Source: an uncultured Armatimonadetes bacterium (GTDB lineage: Bacteria > Armatimonadota > UBA5829 > DTJY01). From it: a DNA stretch of 64,000 nucleotides. Positions within the stretch are counted from its first letter, which is position 1. Every line of letters begins with the position of its first letter. Below are positions 15,001 to 21,000 of the stretch, piece by piece. Position numbers: made by a program. Location: NCBI GenBank assembly GCA_963717145.1, contig OY970325.1, positions 192,001 to 256,000 of the forward strand. Direction: 5' to 3'.

Positions 15001-18000
15001 GGCCGCTGATTCGAGCTTATCCGAGACTCCGGCGAAATCACTGACCGTCGTGATGACGTTCTTGGCGCTGTCGAGGAACCAATCGGCCGACTCCATCTGG
15101 CGGTCGTCAAGCAGTTTCACATATCGGCAGAGCCACACGAGCTTGGCCGTGCTGTAGGCCAGGTATTCGGTCGAGCACATAGGATCCTTGCATCCCATGA
15201 CGCTCCCGGCCAGGTTCTTCGGCAGGTCCGCGCCGAACTCCTTGAGGGAACTTATGTCGTACTTCGCCTTCTCGAGGACATCGAGGTCCTCCTTCCAGGC
15301 CGAGATCAGGTGCGCGAGGTCCGGGTCGAGCGCCATCTTGAGCGGCTCGTTCATTTCCATGCTCTGGCCGGTGCTCGACATCCGATCACCGACGAACTCG
15401 AACTCGAACTTGCCATCGGTGTCACTCGTGCCTATGCCCAGGGGATTCCCCTTGGTATCCGCGAGCGTCAGATTGGCGTTGGCCACCGGGAAAGAGTCAT
15501 GGACGACTGTGCCGGCCAGTGAGCCATTCCTGTTCGGCGCGGGGATGGCGAACTTCTCCACGGGCGCGAATCCGGTCTTCTCGACGGTGAGGTAGTAGAC
15601 GTCGCCGGCATACAGGGGGATGCGGTAATCGGCCCGAACCTCCCTCGCGGGATTTCCCAGGGATGCCACCGCCGCGACGTAGACGTTTCCGCGCTTGAAG
15701 TCGGTCTTGGCGGAGAGCACATCGGGCGCGGTGTAGGTAAACTCGGCTGCTCCCTCGGAATCGATGACCACAGACGGTGCGCTCAGTGCGCCTTTCGCGG
15801 GCAGTTCCTTCTCATTGACGAACAGCTTGACCTTGGCTCCCGCAAGCGGCTTGAAGTTCGTGTCGCCGCAGATGACCTTCAGGCCGAGCTTCGACTTCCC
15901 ATCCGCGAAGAGCGCGGGCTGGCTCTCGTCCGTCGGGACGATGAGCAGTCCTCCCAGCCGAATGGAGAGCGACGCCTTCTGATCGCCGGATCCGACGACG
16001 GTGATCACATCTTCGCCGGGCGTGGTCGGCGCGGTGTAGGTGGCGACCGCAGTGCCGGTGTCATCCGTGATGAACTTGACGTGGGAGCACTTGCCCACTT
16101 TCACATCGATGTCGAACGATCCCTTGATCGGCTTGCCGTTCGCATCGCATGCTACCAGCTTGAGCTTGGCCGTGCTCTTTCCGTCGGCCCACAGTCCGAC
16201 CGACGAAGCTGTGAGGGTCAGCCCGGGTGTGCCTTTGGGCTGCTGGACCGGCGGTTTCGGCGCGGGTTTCTGGGGAGCCGGAGCGGCGGACTTCCCTCCG
16301 GCGCTGGCGACTATCCCCTGGACGAGACTCAGCATTACTTCTGCTCGCTCGCTAAGAAGCCGGTCCTTTGTCGCCGTGAGCTGATCCTTCTCCTGAACCG
16401 GCCAATATGGAATGGCCCACTGCACACCGCCGTCATAGTAAAGGTAGTCGCCGTCATCGAAGCACAACTGGATGGACGCCTTTATGCGGATCGGGCCTTT
16501 GAGCACATAGCACTCGTCATCATTGGTGATCGCTCCGTCGCCTATAGCCACACGCCTGCCGTTCTTCAGGCTCGAGTTGTTCTGCAGCCATACCGCACCG
16601 CTCCAGGAACTCTCCCAGTCAAAGCCGACATCCACCTTGATCTGATACCAGAACCAGTAGTCGTGTACACTGCATTCGTTGCCATCGGGTTTGCCGTTGC
16701 TATTGGCATCACCGTGCCAATACTGGAACTTCCCCTTGTCCAAAAGTTTGCACCAGTAGTTCATGCGCGGAGATTGGCGGTTCGACCTCTGATGGGTGAG
16801 GCCGAGCATCGTCTGCCCGTCGGTCTTCCTGTTGTCGACGCTCCAATCGTTCTTGGCGCGCCATTCCATCAGGGCTTTCGCCTCTGCGTCGGTGACAGCG
16901 AAGGCGGCGAGCGGAACTATTACGAAGAGCACCGTCAGCACGGCGGTGAGATACCTGCGGCCCAGAGCAATCATCTTGTCCTCCTGCAAGAACTGGGAGA
17001 CTGCACTCCCATCAACTTTTTCCACAGAATGTGGCTCTTTGTGATAGGAGAGGTGTAGAATAGGGTCACCATGTACGAACTTCGCTCCACAATCACGAGC
17101 GCGCAGAGCGGCGACCTGGAGGCATACGGGCAACTCGTCCAGCGCTTTCAGGACATGGCCTGCGGTTACGCCTACTCGATCCTCGGCGACTTCGATCAGG
17201 CCCAGGACGCGGCTCAGGATGCGTTCATCCAGGCGTACCGGGAACTCGGGAGCCTTCGGGAGCCGAATGCCTTCGCAAGCTGGTTCCGGCGCATCGTCTT
17301 CACGCAGTGCGCCCGGCTCACGAGAGGCAAACAGCTTCCGATCGTGCCGCTGGAGTCGATCCTCGACGTCCAATCCGCCGAGCCGGGCCCCGACAGGATC
17401 GTCGAGCAGAGCGAACTCAAGGACAAGGTGCTCGCCGCAGTGCGATCGCTCCCCGAGCACGAGCGCGTGGTCACGACTCTCTTCTACATCAATGGCTACT
17501 CCCACGATGACATCGCCGGATTCCTGGATGTGCCCGTCTCGACCGTCAAGAGCCGGCTGCACACGTCCAGGACGCGGCTGAAAGAGAGGATGCTGGAGAT
17601 GGTTGGAGATTATCTGCACGAGAACGCACCGGACGAGGAGTTCACGAGCCGGGTACTGGAGAACATCCCGAAGCTGGGGTGGGGGATGAGGAAGGAGTGC
17701 ACCTACTGCGGCGCACTGGAAGCCGCCCTCAGCCTGACCGATCACCCCTTCGATTACGCGACGATCATGGGGCTCAACGGGATAGCATTCCGCACGAGGT
17801 GGTATCAGGGCCCGGCGGACTATATGCGCTGGTGCCCGTCCAGTTGTGTCGGCGAGTTCCCTGAGGAGGACGAATGGTTTCTCCAGTCGTCGGGCTGGCG
17901 GTTCCGGACGGAGGCCCATCTGAAGGAGAAAGAGCCGAAGATGGGTCGGTTCGCGCCGGATGTCGTGAAATCCATCAACGCCGGCTGGCCGGTTCTGGTG

Positions 18001-21000
18001 TACGACAAGACATGGAACATAGCGGTGATCAAGGGCTATGAGGATGGCGGCCGGACCGTACTCCTGCAGACCTACCGCAATCCCGAGACCGAGAAGCATG
18101 CCCTGGACGACCTGCCCGGGTTCCTGGTGGTATTCAAGGGCTATGACAAGCCGCTTCCGCCCAGGGAGATGCTCATGCACAGCCTGCGGATCGCCGTGCG
18201 TAACTGGGACCGGCCAGAAGGACTGCCGGATTTCAACCGTGGGGATTATGTCTATGGCTTCCGGGCGCTCAAGCAGTGGGCGGAGGATCTCGGCCACTAC
18301 GATGAATGGACCGAGAAAGAGCGCGAATCGCTCTTCTTCGTGAGCTGGTGGTGCTTCTGCAGCCTGGTAGATGGACGGATGGCGGCAGTGGAGTATCTTC
18401 GCGGTCACCTCGATGACGTGTCCGGCGACGAGCAGGAGTCACTCGCCCGTGCGATCAACCGGTACGAGGAGGAGATCAACCTGCTGACTCCACCCTCATT
18501 CGAGCGCAGGGAGGCCTTCTTCGGGCCTTGGAGTGGCAAGTCGATCGCCGACTGGACGCCCGAGGTTCGTGCCCGCGAGCAAGAACTCCTGCGCAAGGCC
18601 ATGACGATCGAGGAAGCGGCAATCGCGAGCCTCAGGACCGTCATCTAATCCTTTCTCCGCGAAGTTGGCTCTATGGTAATGAGAGTCGATGAAGTAGTGG
18701 AGGTTCAGCGTGAAAGAACTCGTAACACGTGCTCAGCGGGGCGATCTCGATGCCTTCGGGCAGATCGTGAATCGCTTCCAGGACATGGCGGTCGGGTATG
18801 CCTACAGCATCCTCGGCGACTTCCACCTGGCGGAGGATGCCGCTCAGGAAGCGTTCATTGGATGCTTCACTGAGTTGAGGCAGCTTCGGGAGCCGGACGC
18901 GTTTCCCTCGTGGTTCAGGCGGATCGTCTTCACTCAGTGCAGCCGCCTGACCCGTGGGAAGCGCGTGCCGATCGTCTCCCTGGAGGCCGCCGAGCAGATC
19001 GCCGACGCGCATGATCCGCTCGAGACGATCGAACGGAAGCAACTCAGCGATCGCGTCCTCGACGCGGTCCACGGGCTGCCGGACGACGAGCGCGCGGTCA
19101 TGACCCTCTTCTGCATCAACGGCTACTCACAGGCCGAGGTCGGCGCGTTCCTTGATATGCCCGTGAGCACCATCAAGAACCGCCTCCACTCGGCCCGAAC
19201 GAAACTTCGAGAAGGGATGATGGAGATGGTTGAAGAGACGTTGAGAGGAAGCGCGCCGGGCGACGAGTTCGCAGCGAAGATCAAGGGCAGGATCGACAAG
19301 CTGGAATGGGTCTCGCGATATCTTACAAGTCTTGGATGTCTGGAGGGGTGCACTAACTATCTGGGTTACAGCTATCCCGACGGATGGGTCGCCGGCGCGA
19401 CCGGAGATGCCTTCGCGATCCGGATGCATAAGGAGACGTGCCCAGCCGGCATCATCGCATGGAAACCGCCGACAGAGCTGGGTCTGAACATCGGTGTGGA
19501 CCGCGTGACCATCCTGCCGCAGATGGACGATGTTGCCGAACAGCAGCGGATCGTCTGGACCGCGACGGAGGAGGCTCTGAGGAACGGCTCGCCGTGCATC
19601 GGGTTTGCGATGGAGCAGTGGCAATCGTATCTCATCTATGGCTATGACGACGACGGTTACTACTACAAGCCGGTGATGGAGGGGGACGGCTACTTCCCGA
19701 AGGCGAAGATGGGTGTCGATGTGCCCTGCGTGATGACGATCGTTCGGAAGTCCGAACCTGCCGACGATCTGACGACCATTCGGGAAGTGTTGGACTTCGC
19801 TGTGAAGTACAACGCCGCTCCCGAGGAAGTCGCGCCCGGGTTCTTCGGGCCTCTGGAGGATTTCCGAGCCGGTGTCGAGGCCTACGACCTCTGGGCCGAA
19901 TCGCTCAGGCAGGGCCGGGCGGATGCTTTCGGCAACGGCTTCAATGCCCATATCTTCGCCGAACTCAGGCAGTTGGCGGTCAAGTTCCTGGAGGAGGCAT
20001 CGCGCCGGGTGAATGCCTCAGGGTTCGAGGAGGCGATCGGACATTACCGAACCGTGGCCGAGCAACTGCGGACCGTCGCGGACCTCTTCCCGATGTCGAC
20101 GGACCCGAATGTATGTGAAGGACAGGGATCGGATCGCTCGCGCTGTCGAGGCTCTCTCATCCGCCAAAGCCGCCGAGATTCTCGGCCTCAAGGCGATCGA
20201 GCGGATTCTGACCGGGCTCTAGGTTGACCACGCCTCCGGTCCAAAGCTATGATAGGGCCGGAGGTAGACATGGCTGACATTCGCCTTGAGACAGAGCGCC
20301 TGATCCTGCGAGACATCGAGGAGGACGACTGGGCATCGGTTCAGCGGTATGCGAGCATTCCGATCGTCTGCCGGTTCATGGCCTGGGGGCCGAACACGGA
20401 GCAGGATTCGAAGGATTTCGCCACGCGGGCGCAGGCAAGTCGAGGCCAGGATCCGCAGAAGGAAGTCCATCTCGGCATCATACGGAAGGACACCGGGGAG
20501 TTCATCGGCTCGTGCGGGATATCGCGCAGGGATGGTCGCATGCATGAGGCCGAAATCGGCTACTGTCTCCATCCCGACTCCTGGAACCACGGTCTCATGA
20601 CGGAAGCCGCCGGTGCATTAGTCGGCTTCGGTTTCACCGGATGGAAAGTGCACCGCATCTTCGCCCGAATCGACCCCGAGAACTTCGGCTCGATCCGGGT
20701 TGCGGAGAAGTGTGGGATGCGCCGGGAGGGACATCTCTTGAAGACCGACTGGATCAAGGGCGAGTGGCGTGACATGCTGATATACGCGATCTTGGATGAG
20801 GAGTGGAAGTAGATGGAAGTCAGATTTGCGATATGCTTGCTGATCGTGTGCTGCCTGGCGACGACGGCGTCGGCAGCCGGTGTCAAGCCTGAGGGGTATG
20901 TGAGGCAGTGGACGATCCTCGGGCCGTTCCCGAACCCGGAGCGCCCGGCGACTCAGAAGGACCGTGGCGCGTTCGACATCGACTACCTGAAGTCCATCGG

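What a model noticed while it worked through the whole genome (the two positions that open the first line are those of the whole stretch)
17071..20227. One ECF sigma clade with interchangeable C-terminal domains copied from housekeeping proteins
g00200, g00201, g00791 (872062) and g03497 (3971154) share one ECF core and helical linker but end in unrelated domains (BtrH/CcbD-like papain fold, GNAT-like, PilC-type plus HEAT). In other genomes the same core carries tails derived from PheRS-alpha, Rho, SecA, FliG, PilC, histidine kinase or ankyrin, unlike described ECF groups, which have one extension type each; the tails may be decoy sensors.
Evidence so far: The four are the top hits of a profile of the core plus linker (scores 347-150 against 133 or less; call 215) and fall in one clade (support 0.98, with two short ECFs; call 209). 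The 120 closest homologs of the core (55-90% identity) plus these four split into 23 unrelated tail clusters, the largest 43 PheRS-like and 37 BtrH-like. The g00200 tail folds like AziU3/CcbD/CtaG, E 3e-7, with an invariant Cys. PMC7826278 says ECFs with one extension type cluster together and has no tRNA mention (passages, call 213).
(Added by a program. Inside this text positions count along the whole contig: contig position 192,001 is position 1 of the stretch shown here. "Call 12" and the like, gene names such as g00115 and contig names such as C1 are that model's own, and its searches are not shown. The text may have been shortened before it was handed on; [...] marks where a part breaks off. 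The agent that wrote the report below was given it as the finding of a first reader that could run no searches.)

Follow-up and report, generated by a model that had tools for sequence, protein, structure and literature searches.

The report
Self-activating sigma factors with swappable tails
These two genes belong to a large family of bacterial gene switches that appear to turn on their own genes and carry dozens of different swapped-in tail domains, many of them disabled copies of essential proteins, probably used as built-in sensors.

Summary
Real, mostly confirmed. Both window genes are ECF sigma factors (sigma2, sigma4, helical linker) with a BtrH/CtaG-fold tail; paralogs carry GNAT-like and PilC+HEAT tails. 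One clade, built on sigma2/sigma4 columns only, holds all four and about 70 tail classes, among them PheRS-alpha, Rho, SecA, F1-beta, uS2, citrate synthase, FliG/FliM, PilB/C/M and HisKA. Tails are extra copies beside the native genes, are under purifying selection (dN/dS 0.09-0.23) and often lack catalytic residues. New here: a conserved upstream promoter whose -10 and -35 variants track sigma residues (29 of 29 against 1 of 35), with few other sites per genome, which points to self-activation. Corrections: the clade contains the described group ECF264; one core with unrelated tails is published for Planctomycetes (PMC7671368); the BtrH Cys is not invariant (42 of 68); g00201's end is frameshifted. 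Best reading: modular, self-amplifying one-component sensors with borrowed binding domains (about 0.5). The decoy role is untested. This scan noted the family before on other DNA (e1-4937965, e1-1405742).

The parts
17011..17039 (+). Predicted autoregulatory promoter of g00200: -35 AACTTTT (17014-17020), 11-base spacer, -10 TGGCTCTT (17032-17039)
   Evidence: Motif found upstream of clade genes (leave-one-out 47 of 78); second-best site genome-wide; position
17071..18648 (+). g00200: ECF sigma factor, 525 aa (sigma2 ~22-83, sigma4 ~118-172, linker ~172-198, BtrH/CtaG-fold tail 199-525)
17584..17664 (+). Conserved linker after sigma4 (L-K-E-R-M-x-x-M-V-x-x-x-L ... P ... F-x-x-x-V); tails begin directly behind it
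   Evidence: Conservation 84-99% at L170-M174, M177, V178, L182, F191 in 124 cores; helix in both models, low pLDDT at 177-192
17665..18645 (+). BtrH/CcbD/CtaG/AziU3-like papain-fold tail; Cys210 present, no conserved His
18645..18673 (+). Predicted promoter of g00201 overlapping the g00200 stop: -35 ATCCTTT, 11-base spacer, -10 TGGCTCTA (same -10 class as g00200)
18710..20227 (+). g00201: tandem paralog, 505 aa as called (GTG start), core 56-57% identical to g00200, BtrH-like tail without the Cys
20110..20222 (+). Frameshifted 3' end of g00201: the C-terminal helix seen in homologs is read in another frame, ending at TAG 20220-20222
   Evidence: Three-frame translation against P0085, P0262, P0321; a relative's contig has one base fewer at 20110
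20270..20812 (+). RimJ-type GNAT gene downstream, possibly co-transcribed; also follows the g00200 ortholog in G020
   Evidence: Pfam PF13302

Best explanation
A family of soluble one-component ECF sigma factors built as a fixed chassis plus an exchangeable input domain. Shown by sequence: the chassis (sigma2, sigma4, linker) is one clade; tails are exchanged often and fused right at domain boundaries behind the linker; they are maintained by selection; many enzyme-derived tails have lost catalytic residues while keeping the fold; each gene has a cognate promoter upstream that co-varies with the sigma's DNA-reading residues, and few other strong sites exist. Inferred: at rest the sigma is kept off by a closed sigma2/sigma4/linker arrangement, by being tethered through the tail, or by turnover. 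When the tail binds what its parent protein binds (a metabolite or nucleotide, a partner subunit, an antibiotic or a foreign protein), the sigma is freed or stabilised and amplifies its own transcription unit. For the two window genes the input is a catalytically impaired BtrH/CtaG-type pocket, most likely binding an acylated or amine-bearing small molecule or a carrier protein; both share one promoter class and should cross-activate.
For: Clade of 288 of 369 rows, support 1.0, 73 tail labels, none of 63 tail-less controls inside; 88 tail changes against a minimum of 18 and 160 when shuffled; 87 pairs with at least 80% core identity but different tails, up to 95%. Tail dN/dS 0.085-0.23 in 17 of 17 pairs. 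Native pheS, rpsB and atpA/D exist separately. Catalytic loss: HisKA His to Lys in 5 of 5; Rho Walker A GKR and no catalytic Glu, F1-beta GKA/GAT, PilB EDPVE lost; PheRS tails keep motif 2 Arg and motif 3 but lose the F-P-F-x-E-P pocket motif (residue roles recalled). 0 of 361 tails have a 19-residue window with hydropathy above 2.0. Promoter: AACCTTT in 17 of 79 upstream regions against 0.4 expected; Asp81 with -10 GGG in 29 of 29 against 1 of 35, Asn160 with -35 AAG in 5 of 5 against 0 of 59 (kin not independent). Perfect matches only upstream of the gene itself in 6 genomes. sigma2 with sigma4+linker as two chains: weak support, score 0.50, best of 3 controls 0.01, runs agree in at least 94% of contacts, partner pLDDT at least 74; the mark was reached by 116 of 157 solved and 2 of 215 mismatched pairs, but at 0.60 or under by only 18 solved and both mismatches; these are halves of one protein and closed sigma2/sigma4 forms are in the PDB, so likeness may explain it.
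Against: No ligand, activity or expression data. Some tails look intact (citrate synthase, REC, SecA motifs, one APH). sigma2-sigma4 and sigma2-linker couplings were not significant after tree control (median p 0.25-1). About 70 unrelated tails cannot share one interface with the core, so the coupling must be generic and is not identified. Degenerate target promoters may have been missed, and the weight matrix also scores 7 of 45 unrelated ECF upstream regions at 10 or more. PMC7671368 explains a similar pattern in Planctomycetes by fortuitous insertion.
Confidence: 0.5

Rival explanations
1. Sensor and sponge in one (ClpC2-like decoy): the tail copies the target of an antibiotic, toxin or phage protein; binding switches the sigma on and the self-amplified fusion protein is itself the output that mops up the attacker.
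For: The only strong promoter sites are upstream of the gene itself and no downstream gene is conserved beyond close kin, so the fusion is the main visible output. Tails include ClpC N-domains, Rho, SecA, F1-beta, PheRS, HisKA, PilB and also resistance-type folds (Eis/GNAT, APH, nucleotidyltransferase, GyrI, VOC, pentapeptide). ClpC2 works this way (PMC10030653, abstract). That these parents are antibiotic or phage targets is recalled.
Against: No ligand shown; ankyrin, TPR, WD40 and BtrH-like tails, the commonest classes with PheRS, are not copies of known targets; PheRS tails have lost the Phe pocket that an inhibitor might use.
Confidence: 0.22
2. Fortuitous capture: the sigma gene duplicates and inserts in frame into other genes; tails are passengers with no regulatory role (model of PMC7671368).
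For: No conserved neighbourhood; 41 of 69 tail clusters are singletons and a few look like frameshift junk; some tails are intact enzymes; g00201 is frameshifted; published precedent.
Against: Tails under purifying selection in 17 of 17 pairs; the PheRS class spans several phyla at 22-99% tail identity with shared conserved motifs; native genes are intact elsewhere; fusions start at domain boundaries without spacers; the same catalytic residues are lost in independent sequences. Capture may be how tails arise, but not why they stay.
Confidence: 0.13
3. The tail is an effector: self-amplified dead subunits (pseudo-Rho, pseudo-F1-beta, pseudo-PilB, FliG/FliM pieces) enter and poison or tune their parent machines, or intact tails act as enzymes, with the sigma serving as a bistable expression switch.
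For: Pseudo-ATPase tails derive from ring-forming subunits; self-directed promoters.
Against: Gives no input signal; does not fit repeat or small-molecule-binding tails; many tails are fragments lacking oligomerisation parts (uS2 without its hairpin, SecA without its C-terminal third).
Confidence: 0.1
4. Chimeric gene calls or misassemblies.
For: The Rho-ATPase, PilM and uS2 fusions are each seen whole in one sequence only.
Against: Window genes lie on a single-contig genome; 68 of 69 phylum matches lie in frames of 266 aa or more; recurrent fusions on long contigs; diverged, selected tails.
Confidence: 0.02

Closest known systems
ECF264 (Paenibacillaceae; ~350-aa DUF1835 extension; no anti-sigma; promoter GTAACCTT / GGCACATT; PMC7826278 Text S2)
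   Same: 15 Paenibacillaceae-family ECF+DUF1835 proteins score 165-197 bits on the clade profile, 14 of 15 have the promoter motif, and they nest inside the starred node that holds g00200/g00201
   Different: ECF264 is one tail type in one family with its own linker; the window genes have BtrH-like tails, -10 GGCTCT, and the clade spans many phyla and ~70 tail classes
Planctomycetes duplicated ECFs with unrelated C-terminal extensions (Pinto and da Fonseca 2020, PMC7671368; probably overlapping ECF57, my inference)
   Same: Conserved sigma2/sigma4, unrelated extensions of multiple origin, no conserved neighbourhood
   Different: Explained there as fortuitous insertion, 46 of 205 extensions from non-coding DNA; ECF57 has transmembrane helices. 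Here tails are soluble folded domains under selection, many from housekeeping proteins; five Planctomycetota genomes gave no long-frame match to this clade
ECF41/ECF56 (SnoaL-like) and ECF42 (TPR) one-component sigma factors
   Same: Fused regulatory extension instead of an anti-sigma factor; small, autoregulated output
   Different: One extension family per group; no exchange of dozens of domains (PMC7826278 section 14; PMC8999054 passages)
ECF262, ECF115, ECF237 (groups with variable extensions)
   Same: No anti-sigma; several possible extensions; Clostridial ECF262-like proteins share the -35 AACCTTT and fall in the wider clade
   Different: Short or membrane extensions with weak domain hits; no housekeeping-derived tails described in the passages read
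Mycobacterial ClpC2
   Same: Partial copy of an essential protein joined to a self-regulating transcription module; senses and sequesters the parent's inhibitor (PMC10030653 abstract)
   Different: A repressor, one domain type; here an activator chassis with many domains and no ligand shown
CtaG/BtrH/AsbE/CcbD/AziU3 papain-fold ligases
   Same: Whole bipartite fold matches the window tails (Z 17-19)
   Different: Cys-His-Asp triad (PMC12865890 passages) is not conserved in the tails; fused to a sigma factor, outside biosynthetic clusters

Membership tests
ECF (group 4) sigma factors | sigma2 and sigma4, no sigma3 | tested here: met
   Pfam r2 and r4 over cut-off, no r3, in both window proteins; TIGR02937 over cut-off
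ECFs with regulatory C-terminal extension | Extension over 50 aa and no adjacent anti-sigma gene | tested here: met
   Tails of 327 and 311 aa; neighbours are a paralog, a GNAT and a divergent Ig-domain protein; no conserved downstream gene
ECFs with regulatory C-terminal extension | Extension controls sigma activity | not testable with these tools
   Needs truncation assays
ECF264 | DUF1835 extension | tested here: not met
   No DUF1835 hit in the window tails; fold is BtrH/CtaG-like
ECF264 | Firmicutes (Paenibacillaceae) host | tested here: not met
   Closest named homolog is from an Armatimonadetes bacterium
ECF264 | Promoter GTAACCTT / GGCACATT | tested here: inconclusive
   -35 of the same type, -10 differs (GGCTCT)
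ECF264 | Core sequence groups with ECF264 | tested here: met
   ECF264 candidates nest in the SH-aLRT 95 node with both window proteins; they form their own branch (100), so the window genes are relatives, not members
Any ECF Hub group | Score against the group HMM thresholds | not testable with these tools
   HMMs not held; Tables S1-S5 of PMC7826278 gave 0 rows
ECF237 | RebB neighbours, 40-100 aa extension | tested here: inconclusive
   No RebB match in G000 but controls did not ring; ECFs 8-12 kb from RebB in two genomes score 102 bits and lack the linker; no verified ECF237 member was available
Planctomycetes variable-extension clade / ECF57 | Planctomycetes host, about two transmembrane helices in the extension | tested here: not met
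   0 of 361 tails with a hydrophobic 19-residue window; identity with the clade of PMC7671368 itself not tested, its sequences not fetched
BtrH/CtaG-type transacylases | Bipartite papain-like plus helical fold | tested here: met
   Z 17.1-18.8, rmsd 3.7-4.8 A, 267-286 residues
BtrH/CtaG-type transacylases | Cys-His-Asp triad | tested here: not met
   Cys in 42 of 68; no His column at 70% conservation in 53 rows; g00201 lacks the Cys. His position judged from the alignment, not from a residue-level superposition

The most novel reading that the evidence does not exclude
A bacterial counterpart of integrated-decoy receptors: one self-amplifying sigma chassis that has repeatedly captured disabled copies of the cell's own essential machines (PheRS, Rho, SecA, F1, ribosomal S2, ClpC/ClpX, pilus and flagellar motor parts) as baits, so that an antibiotic, toxin or phage protein aimed at the real target trips the switch and is titrated by the amplified fusion. 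The list of tails would then be a map of what is attacked in these little-studied phyla.
Probability: 0.22. Interest if true: 0.88.

Novelty: new variant of a known kind. Interest (0 to 1): 0.63.

Why it matters
It turns scattered odd fusions into one testable family with a predicted promoter, a sigma-residue-to-promoter code and a cultured entry point (ECF264 in Paenibacillus). If the tails are inputs, this is the most modular one-component sigma system I could find described, a natural chassis for engineered sensors, and, in the decoy reading, a catalogue of cellular targets under attack. It also explains misannotations such as a sigma fusion named 'transcription termination factor Rho'.

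Tried and rejected
ECF237 as home group: not supported, not excluded. Covariation as proof of a closed state: top pairs Y33-V133, C31-P187, M29-Y143 failed the independent-pairs test. Regulon search: a weight-matrix scan of G000 gave 182 sites at 14 bits or more with no convincing target beyond the genes themselves; the top site (3400334, minus strand) lies inside a long frame; the zero-mismatch patterns were derived from the own sites and are circular. Conserved downstream gene: none (many calls there are spurious frames). Sequence search of the PDB with the BtrH-like tail profile: nothing below E 0.048. NCBIfam: no family for the window or g00791 tails; the g00791 tail is GNAT-like only as a lead (atlas score 0.90, family on 38% of members). 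Plasmid search at 1e-20 with one core gave no match, at 1e-5 with the other 641 records. No RNA holder listed. Short homologs (245 hits) lie mostly on short contigs and were not taken as tail-less members. Literature searches without a description of this family; most subscription papers are not in the library. A search of earlier findings with the g00200 sequence returned nothing. Not done: metagenome or viral contig scans, forms longer than 919 aa by the word search.
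Full report
What is in the window. Two tandem genes, 17071-18648 and 18710-20227 on the plus strand, encode proteins with sigma70 regions 2 and 4 and no region 3. Their first 198 residues are 56-57% identical and their tails align weakly with each other. The g00200 model (mean pLDDT 82) matches AziU3, CcbD and CtaG over residues 199-525 (Foldseek E 1e-6 to 1e-4; Z 17-19). The genome has two more members, at 872065-873798 (tail without Pfam or NCBIfam hit, GNAT-like as a lead) and 3971118-3973367 (two T2SSF/PilC domains plus HEAT repeats). 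A profile of 120 homologs without the four paralogs ranks them 341, 291, 178 and 149 bits against 132 or less; a linker-only profile finds the window pair strongly, g00791 at E 1 and g03497 not at all. The last ~38 codons of g00201 are out of frame: homologs match another frame ending at 20222 and a relative has one base fewer at 20110.

The family. A core search gave 1558 hits of 288-919 aa; the best 120 plus the four paralogs split into 22 tail clusters. In the phylum, 42 of 301 genomes match and 68 of 69 matches lie in frames of 266 aa or more. Pooling these with the best 150 representatives of a 51-core profile gave 424 cores of 472 sequences and 361 tails of 60 aa or more in 69 single-linkage clusters. 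That count is approximate: some rows are duplicates, linkage merged F1-beta with ankyrin, TPR and GNAT classes are split, and about three singletons look like frameshift junk. Pfam and NCBIfam (79 tails, 65 picked proteins, 11) name PheRS-alpha, SecA, F1-beta, Rho ATPase and RNA-binding domains, uS2, citrate synthase, ClpC N-domain, PilB/PilT, PilC, PilM, FliG, FliM, HisKA+HATPase, REC, BFN, nucleotidyltransferase, APH, GNATs, methyltransferases, GyrI, radical SAM, ankyrin, TPR, HEAT, WD40 and PQQ repeats. Many borrowed domains start within about ten residues of the linker's end (PilC 2-3, SecA 3, F1-beta 2, uS2 1, REC and citrate synthase at residue 200-201, FliG 195-199).

One clade, frequent exchange. 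On sigma2 and sigma4 columns only, FastTree puts 288 of 369 dereplicated rows, including all four paralogs, in one clade (support 1.0) with 73 tail labels and none of the 63 tail-less controls; 19 classes on 226 tips need 88 changes against a minimum of 18 and 160 when shuffled; 87 pairs are at least 80% identical in the core yet have different tails. Identity ends in or just after the linker. A 96-row IQ-TREE (quick, LG+G4) gives 96 for the wider tail-bearing clade, which includes two short ECFs, and places g00791 and g03497 on a different branch from the window pair. Internal support is modest, so the number of changes is an upper-end estimate.

Not chimeras, not neutral. SecA fusions occur in three sequences, HisKA in five, citrate synthase in three clusters with contigs up to 9.7 Mb, F1-beta in three genomes. 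The whole Rho-ATPase fusion is seen once, but a second protein 70% identical to its tail shares the junction and the same substitutions, against 48-51% for true Rho. Native pheS (3 of 4 genomes searched; the fourth is a partial MAG), rpsB and atpA/D lie elsewhere. Tail dN/dS is 0.085-0.23 in 17 of 17 pairs, like the cores (several dS values are saturated). Catalytic residues are lost in Rho, F1-beta, PilB, HisKA and partly PilT tails and kept in citrate synthase, REC and the SecA nucleotide motifs. In 42 PheRS-like tails, motif 2 (G-R-x-F-R), F-H-Q and motif 3 persist while the F-P-F-x-E-P and Q-T-T motifs of the genome's PheS do not; the fold is PheRS-alpha (Z 25.9, rmsd 2.4 A, 210 residues). 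In 68 BtrH-like tails the Cys is in 42 and no His is conserved, against the Cys-His-Asp triad of CtaG and BtrH (PMC12865890, passages). Residue roles in Rho, F1, PilB, HisKA and PheRS are recalled.

A self-directed promoter. AACCTTT occurs upstream of 17 of 79 clade genes against 0.4 expected. A bipartite matrix (-35 AAC[CT]TTT, 11-base spacer, -10 [TC]GG[GC]NCT[TA]) scores 10 or more in 57 of 80 regions against 5 of 240 shuffles (circular), 47 of 78 on leave-one-out, and 15 of 54 control ECF regions, 8 of them ECF262-like relatives. The variants follow the sigma sequence and not the tail: of 64 scored regions (of 81), Asp81 goes with -10 GGG in 29 of 29 against 1 of 35, and Asn160 with -35 AAG in 5 of 5 (two branches) against 0 of 59. 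Both window genes have such a site with -10 GGCTCT. Pattern searches found perfect matches only upstream of the gene itself in G060, G222, G034 (3 of 3) and in 3 of 5 further genomes, with mismatched sites at control level (22 against 21; 12 against 18). No downstream gene is shared beyond close kin. The visible regulon is thus the gene itself, though degenerate targets could be missed.

Mechanism. Shown: chassis, exchange, selection, frequent catalytic loss, solubility (0 of 361 tails hydrophobic), cognate promoter. Inferred: the tail is a binding input and the output is self-amplification. How a tail couples to the core is open. Covariation pointed to sigma2-sigma4 and sigma2-linker contacts but failed a tree control; folding sigma2 with sigma4+linker gave weak support only (0.50 against 0.01; such passes are more often wrong than right, and solved closed forms may explain it). 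I put 0.5 on the sensor model, 0.22 on a ClpC2-like sensor-and-sponge decoy (PMC10030653, abstract and outline only), 0.13 on neutral capture, 0.1 on an effector role.

Known work. PMC7826278 (abstract, section 14 part 1, supplement part 1, passages 1-43 and 46-64 on 'C-terminal extension', parts 23 and 27 whole; the tables could not be read) lists groups with several extension types (ECF115, ECF262, ECF52, ECF57) and has no hit for ankyrin or Poribacteria in the held supplement text. Its ECF264 (DUF1835, Paenibacillaceae, GTAACCTT/GGCACATT) is a branch of this clade: 15 such proteins, from 16 loci picked for long frames out of a 121-genome DUF1835 search, score 165-197 bits, 14 carry the motif, and they nest in the node (95) with the window pair. 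They were identified by the paper's description, not by its HMM. PMC7671368 (abstract, passages, end of section 12) already reports one Planctomycetes ECF clade with unrelated extensions and proposes fortuitous insertion; five Planctomycetota genomes gave no match in a frame over 292 aa, so that group is probably separate, but I did not test its sequences. PMC8999054 (passages) lists mechanisms for 11 of 26 extension groups and none like this. Searches found no description of housekeeping-derived tails; supplements of PMC7671368 and the ECF Hub may bear on this. Earlier notes of this scan reached the same family from other genes; they are not independent support.

Verdict. A real and striking family: a new variant of a known kind (ECFs with regulatory extensions), related to ECF264 without being a member of it. 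The scale of exchange, the disabled housekeeping tails and the self-directed promoter code are the new parts. Interest 0.63.

Noticed in passing
window 20110-20227: g00201 is frameshifted near 20110; its last helix is encoded in another frame. Mutation or assembly error not decided.
   Followed up: partly
G000:C1 about 2298300-2299383 (+), L003: Stand-alone BtrH-like protein with a signal-peptide-like start, E 3e-18 to the g00200 tail; a similar secreted protein directly follows the BtrH-tailed sigma in L036:3276-4349. Possible donors or extracellular partners.
   Followed up: partly
G000:C1 2184029-2185888 (-): A fifth long ECF with a TPR-like tail, outside the clade.
   Followed up: partly
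G303 (Poribacteria MAG), L170-L183: 16 matches to the clade profile in one genome, with ankyrin, BFN, uS2 and transmembrane-plus-Kelch-like tails; the membrane-anchored ones form a sister branch.
   Followed up: partly
L185:2980-3804: Tolypothrix plasmid ECF with a ClpX-type zinc-finger tail (recognised by eye), the same -35 motif and a GNAT gene downstream.
   Followed up: partly
L016 and L019, downstream gene: Nucleotidyltransferase-tailed members are followed by a UvrA-like gene in two genomes (recognised by eye).
   Followed up: no
window 14305-16974 (-): Divergent ~890-aa secreted protein with invasin D3/Big_1 Ig domains; its start lies 40 bases from the predicted -35 box.
   Followed up: no
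window 20813-23011 (+): 732-aa secreted beta-lactamase-family (serine hydrolase) protein with a PA14-like region, abutting the GNAT gene.
   Followed up: no
G229:C52:5313-5627: The native ATP synthase subunit match is split into two pieces in one frame, suggesting an insertion in its N-terminal barrel.
   Followed up: no
NCBIfam NF051887: PheRS-like tails also hit 'PheS-related mystery ligase SrmL' below cut-off (94 against 300 bits).
   Followed up: no
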